46,184 nt of DNA. Origin: an uncultured Methanosarcinales archaeon. GTDB taxonomy: Archaea; Nanobdellota; Nanobdellia; Woesearchaeales; GW2011-AR9. Made by a program: the position numbers and the translations under genes. The stretch is from the NCBI GenBank assembly GCA_964439765.1, contig CAYTOG010000003.1, forward strand, positions 1 through 46,184. The letters are read 5' to 3'. The notes below the pieces were generated by a model that saw nothing but the letters and a program-made list of their open reading frames with translations, ran no database searches and had not been told where the DNA came from. Positions 3,586-23,936 of this stretch are shown in pieces. Numbering within the stretch: the first letter of the stretch is position 1; every line of letters begins with the position of its first letter.

Positions 3586-3933
3586 ATGGTATTAAAAGAA
3601 TTAGAACTAATTGCAAAAGTTGGAATGAAGGCTGCGAGTATGGCTGGAATTAAAAAAGCAGACGTGGAAAAACATCTAGCACCACTTGTAAAAGCAAAAA
3701 AATTAACAAAAGCAGAGGCAAAAAGTTTTGCAAAAGATATAATTGCTGTTGGTAAGAAACATCATGCAAAAATACGAACGGCTGTTCAGAAGGAAGTCGA
3801 AAAAGGGCTTAAAAAACGTGGATATGTGAAAGCAAAACCAAAACGTAAAGCAGCAAAGAAAAAAGTTGTAAAGAAAAAGGCAGCAAAGCGCAAAGTAGCA
3901 AAGAAAAGAAAGCCTGCGAAGAGAAAGAAATAA
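3586..3933 (+). CDS. Phasin-like (COG3937-type) protein with a histone H1-like Lys/Ala-rich tail
   Basis: The N-terminal helix pattern (GMKAASMAGIKKADVEKHLAPLVKAKKLTKAEAKSFAKDII...VQKEVEKGLKKRG) resembles COG3937 phasins. The tail has KAAKKK/KVAKK repeats. SD GAGGTG at 3575-3580. It follows an ABC1 kinase. Confidence 0.6.
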   Translation: MVLKELELIAKVGMKAASMAGIKKADVEKHLAPLVKAKKLTKAEAKSFAKDIIAVGKKHHAKIRTAVQKEVEKGLKKRGYVKAKPKRKAAKKKVVKKKAAKRKVAKKRKPAKRKK

Positions 3934-6114: not shown

Positions 6115-6741
6115 ATGTATCAATACACAAAAAGTAAATCAATCAAGATTGGACCAATCAAAACAAGCAATGCAGAAATCCGTGATATTGGTAAAGCTTG
6201 GATTGCACTTTCATTTGCGTTCGCACTTTTGTTCTCTGGAATATATCTTTTAGGGGGAAGAAGTTTTAGTTATATCTTATCAACAAATTTCATGCTTATA
6301 TTTCTAGTGTCACTTGGAACAGCAGGACTTGGTTTCTTGCTCCATGAACTTGCACATAAGTTTGTAGCACAGCATTTTGGTTGTATGGCAGAATTCAGAG
6401 CATTTGATCAAATGATTGTTCTCGCTGTTGGGCTAGCTGCAGTAATTGGTTGGATCTTTGCAGCACCTGGTGCTGTTATGATCTCAGGGACTGTCACAAG
6501 AAAAGAAAATGGAATAATTAGTTTAGCGGGGCCTGCAATGAATTTTGCATTAGCAGCAATTTTTTGGTTTATTGCCCAGTCAATTCCTCTGTTTTCAGTA
6601 GGACATTTTGTGAATGCATGGCTTGGAATATTTAATCTGATTCCATTTGGTAATCTCGACGGGAAGAAAATCTTAAGCTGGAGTAAAGCTTGGTGGGTAG
6701 GTTCAGTAGCCCTCGGAATTTATTTATTGTTCTTTTTGTAA
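6115..6741 (+). CDS. Site-2 protease (peptidase M50 family) membrane metalloprotease
   Basis: HELAH zinc motif, AGPAMN, NLIPFGNLDG (NxxPxxxxDG) and several TM helices. Confidence 0.93.
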   Translation: MYQYTKSKSIKIGPIKTSNAEIRDIGKAWIALSFAFALLFSGIYLLGGRSFSYILSTNFMLIFLVSLGTAGLGFLLHELAHKFVAQHFGCMAEFRAFDQMIVLAVGLAAVIGWIFAAPGAVMISGTVTRKENGIISLAGPAMNFALAAIFWFIAQSIPLFSVGHFVNAWLGIFNLIPFGNLDGKKILSWSKAWWVGSVALGIYLLFFL

Positions 6742-6862
6742 TTTTTAGTGGGGCTGAAGCAAAGCGTAATGCCACACATTGCGTATCAAATGCGCGTAAC
6801 CATTTGGCTTGGTGGGTTGGAAGCGTAGTACTTGGAATTTATTTGTTGTTCTTTTTGTAATT
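6688..6862 (+). repeat. Hairpin cassette copy A flanked by a 56-bp imperfect direct repeat of the M50 gene 3' end (6688-6743 vs 6807-6862)
   Basis: 47/56 identity between the repeats. The insert holds the stem GTGGGGC..GAAGCAAAGCGTAA..GCCACAC and the 32-bp core ACATTGCGTATCAAATGCGCGTAACCATTTGG (6776-6807). Confidence 0.9.
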
Positions 6863-6885
6863 GTCTTCTATCGACATCTTTATAA

Positions 6886-7113
6886 GTGATTATTACTAAA
6901 ACAACTATTATGGCACTCACAAAAACAGATAAGGAATTATTACATATAATCGTACAAAAAGAATTATCTCAAATGCAATCTGACGCAAAAAAACTAATGA
7001 TTGTTAATGCAAATTACATCACAACAACAAAAGGTAATGGTGATTTAGAATTCTTAAAAACTGAAGAAAAGTATGAAGAAGCACTTAGAAAGTTACTTAA
7101 GAAACTTAAATAA
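6886..7113 (+). CDS. Small hypothetical helical protein (start may be ATG 6909)
   Basis: Open ORF with charged amphipathic composition and TTTATAA upstream. Confidence 0.65.
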   Translation: MIITKTTIMALTKTDKELLHIIVQKELSQMQSDAKKLMIVNANYITTTKGNGDLEFLKTEEKYEEALRKLLKKLK

Positions 7114-7257
7114 AATAATCTTTGATATATCTAATAATATTCAATAAAAGATAACAAGATTATGTGAAATCAACAACCCGAAATCCTTGTCAAAATGGCG
7201 AAATAAAGCCAAATTCTCCGTTTTTAATAGAAAACTATATATACTTCAATTATATTC

Positions 7258-7362
7258 GTTACTGGCACAAGGCAATTAATGCCATGTAACCAAGAGGTGA
7301 TGGGTTCTATTTAGAGGTGAATAGTTCTGTAACATTATTTCTTTGGAAAAGAGGTGGTTCAA
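7258..7362 (+). promoter_or_regulatory. Putative structured 5' leader with repeated AGAGGT motifs
   Basis: TATA-like CTATATATA at ~7235. Hairpin GTTACTGGCA..TGCCATGTAAC. Hairpin CTATTT-AGAGGT-GAATAG. GAGGTG occurs at 7294, 7314 and 7351. Confidence 0.45.
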
Positions 7363-7488
7363 GTGAAACAGTATGTGTTTCAAGAGGTAAAGAAGTTCAA
7401 AATACAGCGATGCTGTAAGAGTTGTAATACAAGGATGGTTGTGGAAAACGCAAACCGCTATTATTGCAAGGGATGTCGGGGCTATTAG
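7363..7488 (+). CDS. Unannotated 41-aa zinc-ribbon microprotein MKQYVFQEVKKFKIQRCCKSCNTRMVVENANRYYCKGCRGY
   Basis: GTG start 6 nt after SD GAGGTG. CKSC-x13-CKGC. The stop lies within the hairpin GGGCTATTAGCCC, which is followed by a T7 tract. Confidence 0.78.
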   Translation: MKQYVFQEVKKFKIQRCCKSCNTRMVVENANRYYCKGCRGY

Positions 7489-7590
7489 CCCTTTTTTTCT
7501 TCTTATGAGGTTGAGCAAAGCGAATACCTCATGCACTATCAAATGCTGCTGCATTTGGTCGTGGGCTTTTTAGCCCTTTCTTTTTTCTTT
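7475..7590 (+). repeat. Hairpin cassette copy B flanked by an imperfect duplicate of the microprotein end/terminator
   Basis: Stem ATGAGGT-TGAGCAAAGCGAAT-ACCTCAT, then TATCAAATGC-TGCT-GCATTTGG. GTCGGGGCTATTAGCCCTTT recurs as GTCGTGGGCTTTTTAGCCCTTT from 7558. Confidence 0.8.
7479..7498 (+). terminator. GC hairpin plus T-tract terminator
   Basis: GGGCTA-T-TAGCCC followed by TTTTTTT at the microprotein stop. Confidence 0.6.
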
Positions 7591-7862
7591 ATTGTAATTA
7601 AAATATATCTATAGCGCAAATAATTCTACTTGTTCATCAAATATTTCTATCAAAACTAAGACCTCAAGTACCCTATTAAACAGTGCAAAAGAATGCTTAT
7701 ATATCAGTTTGTTTCTGAAAATGCAAACATTCAGCAGGATATAATTCACTTAATTTTTGGGTTTTTTTGTTGTAGTTTTCCCGAACAAATATATTGCACA
7801 ACGACAAGATATTTAAAGTGAGTATTCTGATAAAAACTTAATTCAGATCAATTTCAAAAGGG

Positions 7863-10562
7863 GTGGAATACATGATCACAAATGTACAAAAAGCAGATGG
7901 AACAATAGTTGAGTTTGATAAAGATTACACAATTTCTTCTCTATCACATATTTTACAAGAAAAAGCTGAGATGTCAGAGTCAGAATCAGTTGAAATTGCA
8001 ACAAATATTATTCAATTAATTAATAATCGTAATATTGATACTCCATCAACATCTGATTTTGAACAGTTAGTAAATCTAGTTGTAACCACAACAAAATTAA
8101 CAAATAATACTAAAGAAAAATCTCAAGAAGAAGAAAAAGAAGATTCTAGTGAGCCAGAAGTACCAGAAGTTCCCGAAGTAAGTTCAATTCTTGAGGAAGA
8201 TTCGGATGAAGAAGTAAGTGAAGAACACAAAGAGAATACAGTTACAGAATCCGAAGATAATGCTGAAGAACTCCAAAAAGATCTTATGCACTTAAATGAG
8301 AAAGAAGTATTTGTGAGTGAACAAGGAAGAAGAATTCTTGCAGAGTCAACAGTATTCGACGAATTAGGAAGATCAATATTTCTAGATCGTTATTCTTTAA
8401 AGTGTAAACGTGAAGAGATTGAAGTTGGGGATTTAGTAGTTGCTATTAGCAAAGAAGATCCAAAATTTCCTAAAAAAGATTTAGGAGTTGTTACAAAAAT
8501 GGATGGTGATGATATCACGCTCCATATGGTAACTGGGATGTTTGCAGACGAAGAAAATAATTTTGAATTTAAAACATCCATTTGGAAATGTGATAAACCA
8601 ATTGAATCAATTCAAGATGCTCACAAAAGGATTGCAAAAGCTGCAGCAAGCATGGAACAAACAGATGAGCTCAAACAATCTTGGGAAGATAAATTTTATG
8701 ATGAGTTAAGTAAAAAGCATATTCAACCAGCAGGAAGAATAATGACTGCAGCGAATGTGGGTAGTGGCTACACCAAAAATTTAACTTTGTACAATTGTTA
8801 TGTCTTGCCTAGTCCACAAGATAGTAGGGAGGGAATTGTCAAAGAAACATTGTATCAAATGACTGAAGTTTTCTCAAGGGGAGGGGGAGTTGGAATTAAT
8901 CTTTCTACATTAAGACCACGTTATTCATATGTTCAAGGAGTTCATGGTAAATCTTCCGGAGCAGTTTCTTGGGGAGGAATATTCTCATATGGAACTGGTT
9001 TAATTGAGCAAGGAGGTTCAAGAAGGGGAGCTTTAATGCTTATGCTTCATGATTGGCATCCAGATATTTTAGAATTTATTACAGCAAAAAGAAAGAAAGG
9101 TGTGTTAGAAAATGCAAACATTTCTGTTTTGGTTTCTGACAGATTCATGGATGCTTTGTCAAAGGGCGAAGATTGGAATTTAGAGTTCCCTGACCATGGG
9201 GCTGAAGGCATGAAAGAAATTTATAATGCAGAATGGGATGGAAACATTGACGCTTGGAAGGCAAAAGGATATCCCGTTCGAGTTTATAAAACGGTAAAAG
9301 CTGCCGAGATGTGGGATTCACTTATTTCTTCTGCCCATGCAAGTGCTGAACCAGGAATTGTTTTCATGGAGAGGTATAACAAGTTAAGTAACTCTAATTA
9401 TTATAACTCTTTAATTTGTACGAACCCTTGTGGTGAACAAGGTCTTCCAGCGTGGGGTGTATGTAATTTAGGACATCTTTATCTAGCAGAATTTGCAAAC
9501 AAAGTAGGTAGTGATGAAGTTGGCCCAGTGTATGAAATTGATTGGGAGGCACTTAAAAAAGCTGCAACAACATTGGTGCGTTTCCTTGATAACATAATTG
9601 ATTTGACTCCTTATCACTTTAAAGAAAATGAAGTTAACCAAAAAAGTGAAAGAAGAGTTGGTGCAGGGACATTGGGTCTTGGAGAATTATTAATTAAGTT
9701 GAGAGTAAGATATGGGAGTCCAGAATCTTTAGAGGTAATTGATAAAATTTACAAAACAATTTGTGAGAGCATTTACCTTTGTTCAGTTGAACTTGCAAAA
9801 GAAAAAGGTATGTTCACATATTGTGATCCTGAAAAAATTTCAAATAGTGGATTTATCAAAACTCTTTCTGAAGAGCTTCAAGGTCAAATTAGAGAACATG
9901 GGCTAAGAAATGTGAGTTTAACAACTCAGGCTCCAACTGGAACAGTTGGAACTATGCTTTCAACTTCAACTGGAATCGAACCGTATTATGCGTTTGAATT
10001 TTTCCAACAATCAAGGCTTGGTTTTCATAAAGTAGTAATTCCACTTGCAAAAGAATACCAAAAAGAAGATGGTTCATTCCCAGATTGGATGGTAACTGCA
10101 ATGCAGATGAGTCCTCTTGACCATATTAGGGTGCAAGCAGGAGTACAACGTTGGACAGATTCTTCTATTTCTAAAACCGCAAATGCTCCAGAAAACTTCA
10201 GTGTTGAACAAACAAAACAACTTTATGAAGAAGCATACAGGCTTGGGTGTAAGGGAGTCACAATTTATCGTGATAATTGCAGATATGAGCAAGTGCTTAC
10301 AACTGATGCAAAGAAGGAAGAAGAAAATGCAAATAGTGGAGATTGGGAAGCAAGCAATGAAACTGAAGTAGAAAATGCTGAAACAACAGTTTCTGAGGAA
10401 ACATCCAAAACAAATACAACTACTTCAGAACAAGTGGCTACTATGGCTATGCAAGCAGAAGAAATTGCTGGAGAAACTCCAAAAACAGAAGAAGATGATT
10501 CTCAAAAGTGCGAACTTCGTTTTGATGAGAATGGTCAGATGTATAAGAGCTGTAGCGATTAA
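7863..10562 (+). CDS. nrdJ: Adenosylcobalamin-dependent (class II) ribonucleotide reductase with a degenerate N-terminal ATP cone
   Basis: NCYV, GGGVG, RRGALM, TNPCGEQ, CNLG, APTGT and KGVTIYRD motifs, with a C-terminal Cys pair. No NrdB radical subunit is nearby. Confidence 0.9.
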   Translation: MEYMITNVQKADGTIVEFDKDYTISSLSHILQEKAEMSESESVEIATNIIQLINNRNIDTPSTSDFEQLVNLVVTTTKLTNNTKEKSQEEEKEDSSEPEVPEVPEVSSILEEDSDEEVSEEHKENTVTESEDNAEELQKDLMHLNEKEVFVSEQGRRILAESTVFDELGRSIFLDRYSLKCKREEIEVGDLVVAISKEDPKFPKKDLGVVTKMDGDDITLHMVTGMFADEENNFEFKTSIWKCDKPIESIQDAHKRIAKAAASMEQTDELKQSWEDKFYDELSKKHIQPAGRIMTAANVGSGYTKNLTLYNCYVLPSPQDSREGIVKETLYQMTEVFSRGGGVGINLSTLRPRYSYVQGVHGKSSGAVSWGGIFSYGTGLIEQGGSRRGALMLMLHDWHPDILEFITAKRKKGVLENANISVLVSDRFMDALSKGEDWNLEFPDHGAEGMKEIYNAEWDGNIDAWKAKGYPVRVYKTVKAAEMWDSLISSAHASAEPGIVFMERYNKLSNSNYYNSLICTNPCGEQGLPAWGVCNLGHLYLAEFANKVGSDEVGPVYEIDWEALKKAATTLVRFLDNIIDLTPYHFKENEVNQKSERRVGAGTLGLGELLIKLRVRYGSPESLEVIDKIYKTICESIYLCSVELAKEKGMFTYCDPEKISNSGFIKTLSEELQGQIREHGLRNVSLTTQAPTGTVGTMLSTSTGIEPYYAFEFFQQSRLGFHKVVIPLAKEYQKEDGSFPDWMVTAMQMSPLDHIRVQAGVQRWTDSSISKTANAPENFSVEQTKQLYEEAYRLGCKGVTIYRDNCRYEQVLTTDAKKEEENANSGDWEASNETEVENAETTVSEETSKTNTTTSEQVATMAMQAEEIAGETPKTEEDDSQKCELRFDENGQMYKSCSD

Positions 10563-11065: not shown

Positions 11066-11139
11066 GGGATCGTAGCTCAATCTGGGAGAGCACTAGACTG
11101 AAGATCTAGGTGTTGAGGGTTCAAATCCCTCCGATCCCA
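11066..11139 (+). tRNA. tRNA-Phe (anticodon GAA), no intron, CCA not encoded
   Basis: Acceptor GGGATCG/CGATCCC, D arm GCTC/GAGC, anticodon arm CTAGA-CT GAA GA-TCTAG, T arm GAGGG-TTCAAAT-CCCTC. Confidence 0.96.
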
Positions 11140-11244
11140 CTTTTTTCTTATTTGGGTAAGTGAACATTAGTGAGCGCATCCCAACATTGCGTATCAAATG
11201 CGCGTAACCATTTGGTGATAGATCCCTCCGATCCCACTTTTTTC
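11125..11244 (+). repeat. Hairpin cassette copy C flanked by a perfect 23-bp direct repeat of the tRNA-Phe 3' end (11125-11147 = 11222-11244)
   Basis: ATCCCTCCGATCCCACTTTTTTC occurs twice. The insert has the stem TTGGG..GTGAACATTAGTGAGC..CCCAA and a 32-bp core at 11184-11215 identical to 6776-6807. Confidence 0.92.
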
Positions 11245-11344: not shown

Positions 11345-11932
11345 ATGTTTCGTGGATTATTGAATTCCCCAATTGGGGGGTTAATTGTGTTGGTATTACT
11401 TGTTGGGCTCGCTTTCTACATTTATGGTGCGCTTGCATTAATGTCAATTGCAAAAAGAACAAGAACAAAAAATGCATGGCTTGCTTGGATTCCAATAGTA
11501 AATATTTATTTGATGATGAGAATTGGAAGACTTCCAGCATGGACACTCGCACTATGGCTATTAGTTTTTGTGCCAGTTGTAAGTGGCCTAGCTTCTGTTG
11601 GGATGTCAATTTGGTACTGGTGGGCAATAGCTGAACAGAGAAAACGACCAGGTTGGTGGGGAATCTTAATGATTGTACCAATTCTTAACTTAGTTTTGAT
11701 GGGAATCATGGCATGGGGAAAAGACCCAAGAGGAACTGCGATGCCATTAGCTCCAAGAAGAATTATGCCTGCAAGAAGAAAAAAGGTAGCAAAAAGAAAA
11801 GCTCCTAAAAGAAAAGTTGCAAAAAGAAAAGCACCTAAACGTAAAGTAACTAAGCGTAAAGCACCAAAGAGAAAGAAAGCAGCAAAACGCAAGGTAACAA
11901 AACGAAAAGCAACAAGAAGGCGAAAAAGATAA
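11345..11932 (+). CDS. Membrane protein (DUF5684-like duplicated W-xx-IP-x-N module) with a Lys/Arg repeat tail
   Basis: AWLAWIPIVNIY and GWWGILMIVPILNLV repeats, TM helices, C-terminal KRKAP/KRKVA repeats, SD AGGTGA. Confidence 0.75.
   Translation: MFRGLLNSPIGGLIVLVLLVGLAFYIYGALALMSIAKRTRTKNAWLAWIPIVNIYLMMRIGRLPAWTLALWLLVFVPVVSGLASVGMSIWYWWAIAEQRKRPGWWGILMIVPILNLVLMGIMAWGKDPRGTAMPLAPRRIMPARRKKVAKRKAPKRKVAKRKAPKRKVTKRKAPKRKKAAKRKVTKRKATRRRKR
11780..11929 (+). repeat. Coding tandem repeat with ~15-nt period (KRKAP/KRKVA/KRKVT pentapeptides)
   Basis: Visible in both the DNA and the translation. Confidence 0.8.
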
Positions 11933-23369: not shown

Positions 23370-23936
23370 CTACCATTTTTTCTCAAACATTTTCTCGAGT
23401 GATTTCATCAATCCTTCTCCAGCAGATTTTTTGCTTGGATCTCGTACAATAAACCACACTAAGAGGCCAAAGACCAGCATTATAATAATCAATTCCGTAA
23501 CTTCACTACTCCACCAACCAAACACATCATAAGGTCCAGTCCAAAGTCCAAGTGCAGCACCGAAAACATAACCAACAAAACCAATTGATACAAGTGCGAT
23601 AATTGGTGCAGCTCCTTTTGCAAAATCTGTGCCAAAAATCCCCATTAAAAGTAACAACATTATTGCAGCAACTGATATCAATGAAATACTTGGAAGTGCA
23701 TTATTCATAACATCGACTGGATCAAAACCAAGGGGATAATTCCCTGTGATGTGTGGAACAACAAATAATAATCCAAGTGTTAATGCAATTACTACTGCAA
23801 AATTTTTATTATCTTTAAACAGCGGCATTTTGATTGCTACTGCATAGACTATTGTAAAAACAAGTAAAAATGGCAAGAGAAAATCTACCACTCCAATTGA
23901 TTCAAAAAGATTTGCTAATGTTGAAAATGTTGCCAT
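23370..23936 (-). CDS. Membrane protein, paralog 2 of the PFLLVF family
   Basis: DFLLPFLLVFTIVYAVAIKMPLF..KNFAVVIA. ATG 23936 follows GGAG/GAGGTG. Confidence 0.8.
   Translation of the reverse strand: MATFSTLANLFESIGVVDFLLPFLLVFTIVYAVAIKMPLFKDNKNFAVVIALTLGLLFVVPHITGNYPLGFDPVDVMNNALPSISLISVAAIMLLLLMGIFGTDFAKGAAPIIALVSIGFVGYVFGAALGLWTGPYDVFGWWSSEVTELIIIMLVFGLLVWFIVRDPSKKSAGEGLMKSLEKMFEKKW

What the first reader, a model, noticed from the sequence alone, without database searches (positions are those of the whole stretch)
6688..6862. Duplicated M50 protease tail diverged almost only at synonymous sites
Seen: the in-gene tail encodes AWWVGSVALGIYLLFFL* and the orphan copy after the cassette encodes AWWVGSVVLGIYLLFFL*. 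Nine of 56 nt differ across 6 codons. Five changes are synonymous (GTA/GTT, GGT/GGA, TCA/AGC, CTC/CTT, TTA/TTG) and one is A/V. A decaying target-site duplication would mutate without regard to codon position, and the TCA/AGC serine switch needs several changes. Inference: both tails evolved as coding sequence in separate lineages, so a homologous gene end from another strain or species arrived with the cassette and displaced the resident tail.
Basis: partly seen in the sequence, partly recalled or inferred. Interest (0 to 1): 0.85.

Follow-up and report, generated by a model that had tools for sequence, protein, structure and literature searches.

The report
Tiny intron-like mobile element duplicates gene ends
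The two copies of the protease gene's tail flank a 63-base mobile element related to archaeal tRNA introns, and their silent-site differences suggest that the two tails evolved in two different lineages, which may help show how such introns move.

Summary
Window 6688-6743 and 6807-6862 are a 56-nt direct repeat (47/56 identical). Both copies read as the M50 protease C-terminus with one A/V change. The 'cassette' between them is only 63 nt (6744-6806). It is one of 11 copies in this 1.15-Mb archaeal genome of a small structured element matching no Rfam family at gathering score or at E below 1. Eight of the 11 lie just behind a complete gene (4 tRNA sites, 3 ORFs) and are followed by a partial second copy of that gene's 3' end. 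Two more are in this window (7505-7558, 11148-11221). In other genomes of the order, titled Woesearchaeota in public records, the reverse complement of the same core is a bulge-helix-bulge intron in tRNA T-loops. The M50 tails, and those of a radical-SAM gene, differ in a coding-preserving way that random decay rarely gives (P 5e-5 to 0.04). One tail therefore probably evolved as coding sequence in another lineage. No close relative is available, so which tail is foreign and how the element moves remain inferred.

The parts
6115..6741 (+). M50-family membrane protease gene (208 aa), complete, ends in the first tail copy
   Evidence: ORF; PF02163 34.4 bits above cut-off 27.2; orthologues in 56 of 61 related genomes
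6688..6743 (+). Tail copy A: last 17 codons, stop (6739-6741) and 2 more bases; the copy the gene uses
   Evidence: D6
6744..6806 (+). Element copy E1: short T-rich leader, 5' hairpin (stem 6748-6754 with 6771-6777, one mismatch; tandem G.A motif in 6755-6770), linker, 3' core (helix 6787-6792 with 6801-6806; possible second helix 6780-6783 with 6793-6796)
   Evidence: nhmmer hit E 2e-15; fold; pair counts; 32-nt core identical to 11184-11215 (D12)
6807..6862 (+). Tail copy B: orphan copy of the M50 tail with its own stop; its first base is also the last base of the element core
   Evidence: D6; tblastn-type match 94% over residues 192-208
7354..7488 (+). Small Cys-rich ORF (44 aa) whose 3' end and terminator hairpin are the target of element copy E2
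   Evidence: ORF; no Pfam family; conserved downstream of M50 in relatives
7475..7504 (+). First copy of that ORF's 3' end with terminator hairpin and T-run
   Evidence: local alignment (E2_Zn)
7505..7558 (+). Element copy E2 (type A, short core loop)
   Evidence: E 2.7e-9; fold z -3.02
7558..7589 (+). Second copy of the terminator hairpin and T-run: stems kept, loop and trailer differ, two 1-base indels
   Evidence: sequence
11066..11140 (+). tRNA-Phe(GAA), complete
11125..11147 (+). First copy of the tRNA 3' part (from T-loop position 59) plus T-run trailer
   Evidence: 23 of 23 identical
11148..11221 (+). Element copy E3 (type B 5' hairpin, same core as E1), with six further bases that look like the 3' end of the intron form
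   Evidence: (E 1.6e-17)
11222..11244 (+). Second, orphan copy of the tRNA-Phe 3' part plus trailer

Best explanation
The 63 bases between the two M50 tails are one copy of a small, non-coding, structured mobile element (here called E) of this Woesearchaeales-type archaeon. Elsewhere in the order the same core, read on the other strand, forms the 5' end of bulge-helix-bulge introns at position 59/60 of tRNA T-loops. In this genome E takes a second, 'post-gene' form. It sits just behind a complete gene, on the gene's strand. It is followed by a second copy of the stretch that runs from a G or GG near the gene's end to its T-rich terminator. The gene stays intact and an orphan tail is left behind the element. 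SHOWN: the family, its two forms, the matching of each orphan to its upstream gene, and the coding-preserving differences at M50 and at a radical-SAM gene. INFERRED: (a) The duplicate arises when the element inserts, as a long target duplication of variable length. (b) At M50 the locus is a mosaic of two lineages. DNA from a related lineage, either tail plus element or the gene with its tail, recombined in, so one tail is foreign and the other resident. (c) E moves with host or unknown enzymes, since it encodes nothing.
For: Family: 6 strong and 4 weaker nhmmer hits in the genome, plus one more copy seen in an array, making 11. Structure: seven different fully complementary 6-8-bp stems enclose the same G.A motif. 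On 14 diverse cores the main helix is 97.6% paired with 3 doubly changed pairs, and the covariation score is 0.295 against 0.098 in shuffles (0 of 500 reach it). Mobility: the exact 27-29-nt core occurs in 29 metagenome stretches and 23 genome stretches. The pattern matched only 6 of 81 genomes of the family, with true cores in 4 of them including G000, and BLAST found E in 1 of 4 genomes of the genus. The closest copy in G004 lies at a different locus. Intron form: 15 of 43 distinct core contexts fit a strict T-loop intron rule with the pairing tetranucleotide and two 3-nt bulges. Post-gene form: 8 of 11 copies in G000 have a flanking repeat, and all 8 lie on the strand of the upstream tRNA or ORF. 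In 9 of 12 alignments the repeat runs into the last 1-5 bases of the element, and 5 of 12 are identical throughout. Two lineages: one search gives P = 5e-5 (9 random changes) to 0.037 (4 random changes) for at most one residue change at M50. For the radical-SAM tails the conservative-change test gives 0.0014-0.015. In both genes the orphan keeps residues shared with genus relatives where the in-gene tail is derived (compared by eye). In the three-copy array on contig C13 the two outer trailers are alike and the middle one differs.
Against: No close relative or second allele was found, so polarity and breakpoints are untested. The runs hold contigs only, and these break at the repeated core. 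No enzyme is tied to E. PF00078 reverse transcriptase gave 0 hits in G000 (94.6% complete) and hits in 1 of 5 other E-bearing genomes. There is no IS200-type transposase. The four tyrosine recombinase matches are not next to any E copy. Single-sequence folding of E1 and E3 is no better than shuffles (z 0.16 and -0.83). If only 3 of the 9 M50 differences arose in the orphan, the silent pattern is not significant (P 0.125). The orphan radical-SAM tail carries one charge change of its own. Three G000 copies have no recognisable repeat.
Confidence: 0.55

Rival explanations
1. Tail plus element travel as one integrative module. A unit made of a gene's 3' end, its terminator and E recombines, site-specifically or by homology, with the same gene end in a new host. 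It supplies the new functional tail and pushes the resident tail downstream. This is what prophage e14 does at icd and what archaeal viruses do at tRNA genes.
For: The differences preserve function in every diverged pair looked at: M50 and radical-SAM, the terminator hairpin behind the small ORF with stems kept and loop changed, and a T-stem change that keeps pairing on contig C1. In the three-copy array each unit has its own trailer. Repeat lengths of 13-56 nt are in the range of archaeal att repeats (44 bp for SSV1, PMC3293823 discussion). G000 has three tyrosine recombinase genes besides a Xer-like one, one of them beside a tRNA.
Against: There is no integrase and no body: the unit would be about 120 bp. 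At least 8 different targets occur in one genome, so no single att specificity fits. Each new target still needs a first event that copies the local gene end. No E copy lies near an integrase.
Confidence: 0.25
2. An ordinary target duplication was made in this lineage and then drifted in place. The in-gene copy gathered silent changes and the orphan happened to change little. No second lineage is involved.
For: Identical duplicates at 5 of 12 aligned loci show that duplicates do start alike or nearly alike. With 3 or fewer changes in the orphan the pattern is not significant (P 0.125).
Against: An unconstrained orphan should take most of the changes, not the fewest. With 5-9 random changes P is 0.01 to 5e-5. 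The three-position serine switch and differences at about half of the degenerate codons imply a long separation, over which 56 free bases should have changed throughout. The radical-SAM pair shows the same bias, with the stop kept as a different stop codon.
Confidence: 0.07
3. E plus the orphan tail is a functional RNA: a structured handle followed by a guide-like copy of the neighbouring gene end. The in-gene tail was then recoded at silent sites under selection to stop matching it.
For: The layout is handle then target-like segment then T-run in 8 of 11 copies. The structure has strand-specific features, G.U pairs and tandem G.A, on the strand of the gene. The derived states are in the in-gene copy at two codons of M50 and one residue of the radical-SAM gene (by eye).
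Against: Five pairs are identical, so there is no general escape. No nuclease partner is known. No promoter was seen in front of E by eye. No RNA data exist. In the intron form the same sequence works on the other strand.
Confidence: 0.05
4. Assembly artefact: two strains or two repeat copies were joined wrongly at the 32-nt core that three copies share.
For: Public-run contigs end exactly at the shared core (6776-6808), and no single contig spans it.
Against: In all 8 loci with a repeat, the right flank matches the gene on the left, which random mis-joins would not give. One contig covers 6000-6805 and another 6779-7700 without differences. The same architecture is seen in other genomes and metagenomes.
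Confidence: 0.03

Closest known systems
Gene-end replacement by integrative elements: prophage e14 at icd with the icdC fragment in E. coli K-12 (passages of PMC13626634 read); SSV1 at tRNA-Arg with a 44-bp repeat (discussion of PMC3293823 read)
   Same: A complete gene end on one side of the insert and an orphan C-terminal or 3' fragment on the other. The two copies differ mostly at silent sites plus conservative residues, because one came with the element.
   Different: Those inserts are kilobases long, encode their own integrase and have one fixed site. Here the insert is 63 nt, encodes nothing, and sits at 8 or more different gene ends in one genome.
Model of tRNA intron gain and tRNA fragments through mobile-element integration in Caldiarchaeum (Sugahara et al. 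2012, PMC3293823; abstract and discussion read)
   Same: It links tRNA introns, direct repeats of tRNA parts and mobile DNA, and proposes that an attP copy carrying an intron donates it to the tRNA.
   Different: That case involves a 1.8-kb recombinase-encoding insert and a 5' fragment at one tRNA. Here a family of about 60-100-nt elements occurs both as introns and behind genes, protein genes included.
Transposing bulge-helix-bulge tRNA introns of Thermoproteales (Fujishima et al. 2010; not read, known only from citing passages in bioRxiv 10.64898/2026.10.13.758758, and from search listings)
   Same: Related intron sequences recur in different tRNA genes of one genome, and the splicing motif is required at the site.
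   Different: A different phylum. The element here also has a non-intron form with duplicated host 3' ends, which as far as my searches went is not described.
SINE/LINE-type target-primed insertion (recalled knowledge, no call)
   Same: Target duplications of variable length up to tens of bases, insertion at T-rich sites, one sharp element end and short overlaps at the junction.
   Different: No reverse transcriptase was found in this genome. There is no A-tail, and the organism is an archaeon with a 1.15-Mb genome.

Membership tests
Archaeal bulge-helix-bulge tRNA intron (T-loop 59/60) | Lies inside a tRNA gene, between two parts that join into a canonical tRNA | tested here: not met
   E1 lies after the stop codon of a protein gene. 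E3 lies after a complete tRNA-Phe. Met for relatives of the element in other genomes: 15 of 43 distinct core contexts.
Archaeal bulge-helix-bulge tRNA intron (T-loop 59/60) | Two 3-nt bulges around a 4-bp helix, flanked by helices, at the two junctions | tested here: not met
   By eye no such motif can be drawn between the M50 sequence before 6688 and the junction at 6806/6807, and a T-run lies inside the would-be intron. The motif is present in the intron-form copies listed.
Archaeal bulge-helix-bulge tRNA intron (T-loop 59/60) | Sequence kinship with intron copies | tested here: met
   The exact 27-29-nt core is shared between E1 and the intron-form copies.
Integrase-borne integrative element (e14/icd, SSV/pNOB8 type) | Direct repeats of the target gene's 3' end at both borders | tested here: met
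Integrase-borne integrative element (e14/icd, SSV/pNOB8 type) | Integrase gene within the element and one specific attachment site | tested here: not met
   The insert is 63 nt with no ORF. There are 8 different targets. Integrase matches lie elsewhere.
MITE or IS-type DNA transposon | Terminal inverted repeats and a target duplication of fixed short length | tested here: not met
   Repeat lengths run from 23 to 56 nt. Inverted ends are seen only in the intron-form copies by eye. No IS200-type transposase. Other transposase families were not searched.
Retroposon inserted by target-primed reverse transcription | Reverse transcriptase available in the cell | tested here: not met
   PF00078: 0 matches in G000 and matches in 1 of 5 other element-bearing genomes. 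Unusual polymerases were not tested.
Retroposon inserted by target-primed reverse transcription | Variable target duplications, T-rich insertion site, junction overlaps | tested here: met
   lengths 23-56 nt. By eye, 10 of 12 repeats end in or just after a run of four or more T. In 9 of 12 the repeat overlaps the element's last bases.
Diversity-generating retroelement (template and variable repeat) | Differences confined to adenines of the template copy; reverse transcriptase nearby | tested here: not met
   By eye the nine differences involve all four bases in either copy. No reverse transcriptase.
Peptidase M50 (the host gene) | Pfam PF02163 above gathering score | tested here: met
   34.4 bits against 27.2. 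An HExxH-type motif is visible in the translation (the motif name is recalled).
Any Rfam RNA family | Covariance-model match at gathering score | tested here: not met
   Only two tRNAs in the window. On 6650-7650 with relaxed threshold the best E-value is 1.6 and nothing lies on E1.

The most novel reading that the evidence does not exclude
The post-gene copies are DNA footprints of how bulge-helix-bulge introns move. In this reading, a first-strand copy of the excised T-loop intron is primed on the T-run of a gene's terminator. That would explain why the element always lies on the gene's strand, opposite to its orientation as an intron. The copy runs to the intron's 5' end made by the splicing endonuclease, which would explain the sharp element end. 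It then re-enters the duplex at a G or GG a few dozen bases upstream, so the gene's last 13-56 bases are written twice. This would be archaeal intron retroposition by an enzyme that is not a canonical reverse transcriptase. It would also be a route by which gene ends are duplicated and then swapped between lineages.
Probability: 0.15. Interest if true: 0.9.

Novelty: new variant of a known kind. Interest (0 to 1): 0.68.

Why it matters
How archaeal tRNA introns reach new sites is an open question; a 2026 preprint that tested copying, mobile elements and reverse transcription in Asgard archaea concludes that 'how they arrive remains open' (abstract passage). Here one sequence family is caught in two states. 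In one it is a clean T-loop intron. In the other it is an insertion behind complete genes with a duplicated host 3' end, sharp on one side and overlapping the target by a G or two. These junctions constrain the mechanism and can be tested with population data, RNA end mapping and enzyme assays. The finding also shows that a non-coding element of about 60 nt can leave protein genes with two alternative tails, material for tail swapping between lineages. Finally, orphan gene ends and tRNA pieces in small DPANN-type genomes need not mark lost prophages.

Tried and rejected
Diversity-generating retroelement: rejected. The differences are not adenine-specific (by eye) and there is no reverse transcriptase.

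Splicing of the M50 mRNA to use the orphan tail: rejected. No bulge-helix-bulge can be drawn (by eye) and a T-run lies inside.

Minus-one frameshift through the element: the frame of the orphan tail is open from 6690 to 6860. At the radical-SAM locus the spacing is 115 and the frame is closed by a stop inside the element. I take the open frame at M50 as chance (1 of 2 loci).

Rfam: nothing on the element.

fold_alignment on a MAFFT alignment of 8 copies gave 0 pairs because the two hairpin types were misaligned. I counted pairs on a core-only alignment instead. Folding energy alone is weak for E1 and E3.

A degenerate pattern covering both tails found nothing in metagenome contigs.

Laying public runs gave only contigs that stop at the repeat. 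There was no joint and no variant, so this neither supports nor excludes strain mixing. Parts without cover are not used as evidence.

Brute-force in-silico splicing with ARAGORN was too permissive to place splice sites. It was replaced by an explicit rule. One of that rule's 15 hits (L049) probably has the 3' site misplaced.

Empty-site comparison of a G004 tRNA locus with a G000 tRNA failed because the two are not orthologous.

The longer repeat that carries the core in one MAG is 300-470 nt and non-coding, so it is no autonomous parent.

Many pattern hits fall in one conserved protein-coding context and are unrelated (by eye).

Supplementary files of the papers were not seen and might hold intron catalogues that bear on novelty.

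Full report
OBSERVATION. The window holds a 208-aa ORF at 6115-6741 (+). It is a Peptidase_M50 member (PF02163, 34.4 bits, cut-off 27.2). Its last 17 codons, its stop and two further bases (6688-6743) recur at 6807-6862 with 47 of 56 bases identical (family D6; sequence). Both copies read through to a stop at the same place and differ in one residue, A against V, with nine base differences. One correction is needed: the 'cassette' between the copies is only 63 nt (6744-6806).

WHAT LIES BETWEEN. The spacer is a member of a repeat family.
- Its last 32 bases recur exactly at 11184-11215 (D12).
- A motif search and an nhmmer profile over the 1.15-Mb, 92-contig genome (GC 34.6%) found six strong copies (E 2e-18 to 3e-9) and four weaker ones.
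- An eleventh copy, diverged, sits in a tandem array on contig C13.
- Three copies lie within 4.5 kb of this window: behind M50, behind a 44-aa Cys-rich ORF (7505-7558), and behind tRNA-Phe (11148-11221).

The organism is an archaeon: it has a tRNA-splicing endonuclease. Public records holding the same core are titled Candidatus Woesearchaeota or Nanoarchaeota, and a few Methanosarcinales.

ANATOMY.
- Each copy has a 5' hairpin whose stem differs between copies but stays complementary. Seven different perfect 6-8-bp stems were seen.
- The stem closes a conserved internal loop of tandem G.A pairs with a 2-bp cap. The loop comes in two arrangements, types A and B.
- A short linker follows, then a highly conserved 3' core.
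- On 14 diverse cores the main 6-bp helix is paired in 97.6% of cells, with three doubly changed pairs. A second 4-bp helix, which would make a pseudoknot, is paired in 68%. The overall covariation score is 0.295 against 0.098 in shuffles (0 of 500 reach it), and slid controls are lower.
- G.U pairs and G.A motifs exist only on the strand that is the gene's strand in this genome.
- Folding energy alone is unremarkable for E1 (z 0.16) and E3 (z -0.83) and better for E2 (z -3.02).
- No Rfam family matches.

DISTRIBUTION AND THE TWO FORMS.
- A loose core pattern hit 28 of 301 genomes sampled from the order. Many hits are unrelated matches inside one conserved coding context. All 4 sampled genomes of another family (f11) carry true copies.
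- The exact core occurs in 29 metagenome stretches (32 matches) and 23 genome stretches.
- In G000's own family the pattern hit only 6 of 81 genomes, with true cores in G000, G029, G349 and G369.
- In its genus, BLAST finds the element in G004 (8 matches, best 3e-12) but not convincingly in G001-G003 (best E 0.04-0.3).
- The G004 copy most like E1 lies at a different locus. Patchy presence, a near-identical core and different sites point to mobility.
- In 15 of 43 distinct core contexts a strict rule is met. On the strand opposite to the one used above, the core starts right after T-loop position 59 of a tRNA. The insert ends with a tetranucleotide complementary to the first four T-loop bases plus two bases. 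Position 60, the 3' T-stem strand and the acceptor strand follow. This gives a 4-bp helix between two 3-nt bulges, the archaeal splicing motif.
- Five more contexts differ by one base at the exon end (by eye, one search list). G004, G349 and G369 have such copies too.

So the same sequence family serves as a T-loop intron in many tRNAs.

THE POST-GENE FORM.
- In G000, 8 of 11 copies are followed by a second copy of the 3' end of the gene just upstream. In all 8 the element lies on that gene's strand. Four sites are tRNAs (two in the array) and three are ORFs.
- The same layout occurs in G004 (2 copies), G029, G097 and two metagenome contigs.
- In the 12 alignments the repeats are 23-56 nt long. 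Five are identical throughout, non-conserved trailers included.
- By eye, 10 of 12 end in or just after a run of four or more T.
- In 9 of 12 the repeat runs into the last 1-5 bases of the element, which end in G.
- The element's left edge is preceded by a few variable T-rich bases.
- One locus (G306) has a complete tRNA, six bases, the element in intron orientation, and then a second copy of the tRNA's last 14-17 bases.
- Three G000 copies show no repeat.

Thus a duplicated host 3' end is the element's general signature and is not peculiar to M50.

ARE THE TAILS FROM TWO LINEAGES? I placed k random substitutions on the in-gene M50 tail and asked how often the stop is kept and at most one residue changes.

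| k random substitutions | Share of trials |
|---|---|
| 9 | 5e-5 |
| 7 | 6e-4 |
| 5 | 0.010 |
| 4 | 0.037 |
| 3 | 0.125 |

- An orphan free of constraint should collect most of the changes, so in-place decay is unlikely, though not excluded if the orphan changed least.
- About half of the degenerate codons differ and one serine codon is switched at all three positions. That implies a long separation, over which 56 unconstrained bases should have changed throughout.
- A second case supports this. Behind a 398-aa radical-SAM gene on contig C35 (PF04055), the in-gene and orphan tails differ at 7 bases over 14 codons. These comprise two silent changes, one stop codon changed into another, and three conservative residue changes. 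At least as conservative an outcome arose in 0.0014 (k=8) to 0.015 (k=6) of trials.
- The terminator hairpin behind the small ORF keeps its stems and differs in the loop and trailer.
- On contig C1 a T-stem change keeps pairing.
- By eye: the orphan M50 tail shares the valine codon, and the third base of the next codon, with G002 and G004, whereas the in-gene tail is derived there. The orphan radical-SAM tail ends like G004's, stop codon included, but has one charge change of its own. The in-gene tail has a different derived residue.
- In the C13 array the outer trailers are alike and the middle one differs. This fits units arriving with their own tails better than successive local duplications.

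I conclude that one M50 tail evolved in another lineage (about 0.65). I cannot say which one. Nor can I say whether it came in joined to the element or by later allelic recombination with a crossover in or next to the element.

ASSEMBLY. Three runs of one seawater study were laid; all are contigs. One contig covers 6000-6805 and another 6779-7700 without differences. A 33-base piece of higher depth represents the shared core. No joint skips the element and no variant was listed. The match between left gene and right orphan at all 8 loci argues against mis-joins.

MECHANISM.
Shown: the family, its structure, the two forms, the orientation rule and the junction features.
Inferred:
- The element inserts behind terminators with a long, variable target duplication.
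- It uses enzymes that it does not encode.

Enzyme searches:
- No PF00078 reverse transcriptase in G000. It was found in 1 of 5 other carriers.
- No IS200-type transposase.
- Four tyrosine recombinase matches, one Xer-like and one beside a tRNA, none near an element copy.

A copy-of-the-excised-intron model would explain several features together: the opposite orientation of the two forms, the sharp end at the endonuclease-made intron terminus, the T-run adjacency and the G overlaps. It lacks an enzyme, and I give it 0.15.

COMPARISON AND NOVELTY.
- The tail pair behaves like icd and icdC around prophage e14 (passages read) and like tRNA att repeats of archaeal viruses, but without any integrase-bearing element.
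- It fits the spirit of the Caldiarchaeum model, which links mobile DNA, tRNA fragments and intron gain.
- It also fits intron transposition in Thermoproteales, known to me only from citing passages.
- Searches for DPANN or Woesearchaeota tRNA introns and intron transposition listed nothing that describes this element or a post-gene form. Subscription papers and supplements were not visible.

I rate it a new variant of a known kind.

LIMITS. There are no close relatives, no raw reads and no RNA data. Several junction statements are by eye from printed flanks. ARAGORN finds only 30 tRNAs in G000, so further intron-bearing tRNAs may be hidden.

Noticed in passing
window 6690-6860 (+): A 56-codon frame stays open from inside the in-gene tail through the whole element into the orphan tail. 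It lies at minus one relative to M50, with the element's hairpin a few bases after the T-rich end of M50. At the radical-SAM locus the matching frame is closed, so this is probably chance.
   Followed up: partly
window 3586-3933 (+) and 11345-11932 (+): Two ORFs end in long lysine/alanine/proline-rich basic repeats that also show up as DNA repeat family D1. Their function was not examined.
   Followed up: no
window about 7140-7353; loci L014-L034: Upstream of the small Cys-rich ORF, relatives carry one to three repeats of an A-run followed by a Shine-Dalgarno-like purine motif, plus a conserved TATA-like stretch. The window has a similar doubled motif. This may be a leader or attenuator.
   Followed up: no
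window 7863-10562 (+): An 899-aa ORF that looks like a ribonucleotide reductase, with acidic N- and C-terminal extensions. The assignment is from the translation and my recall only and was not searched.
   Followed up: no
G000 contig C13 about 23440-23720 (locus L002): A tandem array: tRNA, diverged type-A element, second copy of the tRNA end, type-B element, third copy. The outer trailers are alike and the middle one differs.
   Followed up: partly
G000 contig C2 7445-7560; G004 contig C7 about 109465-109554 and 110544-110633 (loci L006, L141, L142): Element copies with a 44-55-nt insertion inside the core hairpin loop. The two G004 copies sit directly upstream of ORF starts.
   Followed up: no
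loci L103, L104, L108, L116, L117, L120 (one MAG): A 300-470-nt non-coding repeat, at least 6 copies at 81-98% identity, contains the element core near one end.
   Followed up: partly
G000 contig C2 43006-44174 (locus L163): A tyrosine recombinase ORF lies about 570 bases after an intron-bearing tRNA on the same strand, the layout of pNOB8-type integrated elements. Its borders were not sought.
   Followed up: no
G000 whole genome: ARAGORN finds only 30 tRNA genes and several isotypes are missing. The cause may be non-canonical introns that the program cannot see, or gaps in the 92-contig assembly.
   Followed up: no
G012 contig C106, G058 contig C1, G023 contig C28: M50 orthologues appear split into two adjacent matches (G012, G058) or carry an in-frame TAA (G023). 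They were not inspected for inserted elements.
   Followed up: no
locus L059 (G175): A tRNA whose T-loop holds a roughly 30-nt insert consisting of little more than the core hairpin, in the same orientation as the tRNA. This is a minimal relative of the element.
   Followed up: no
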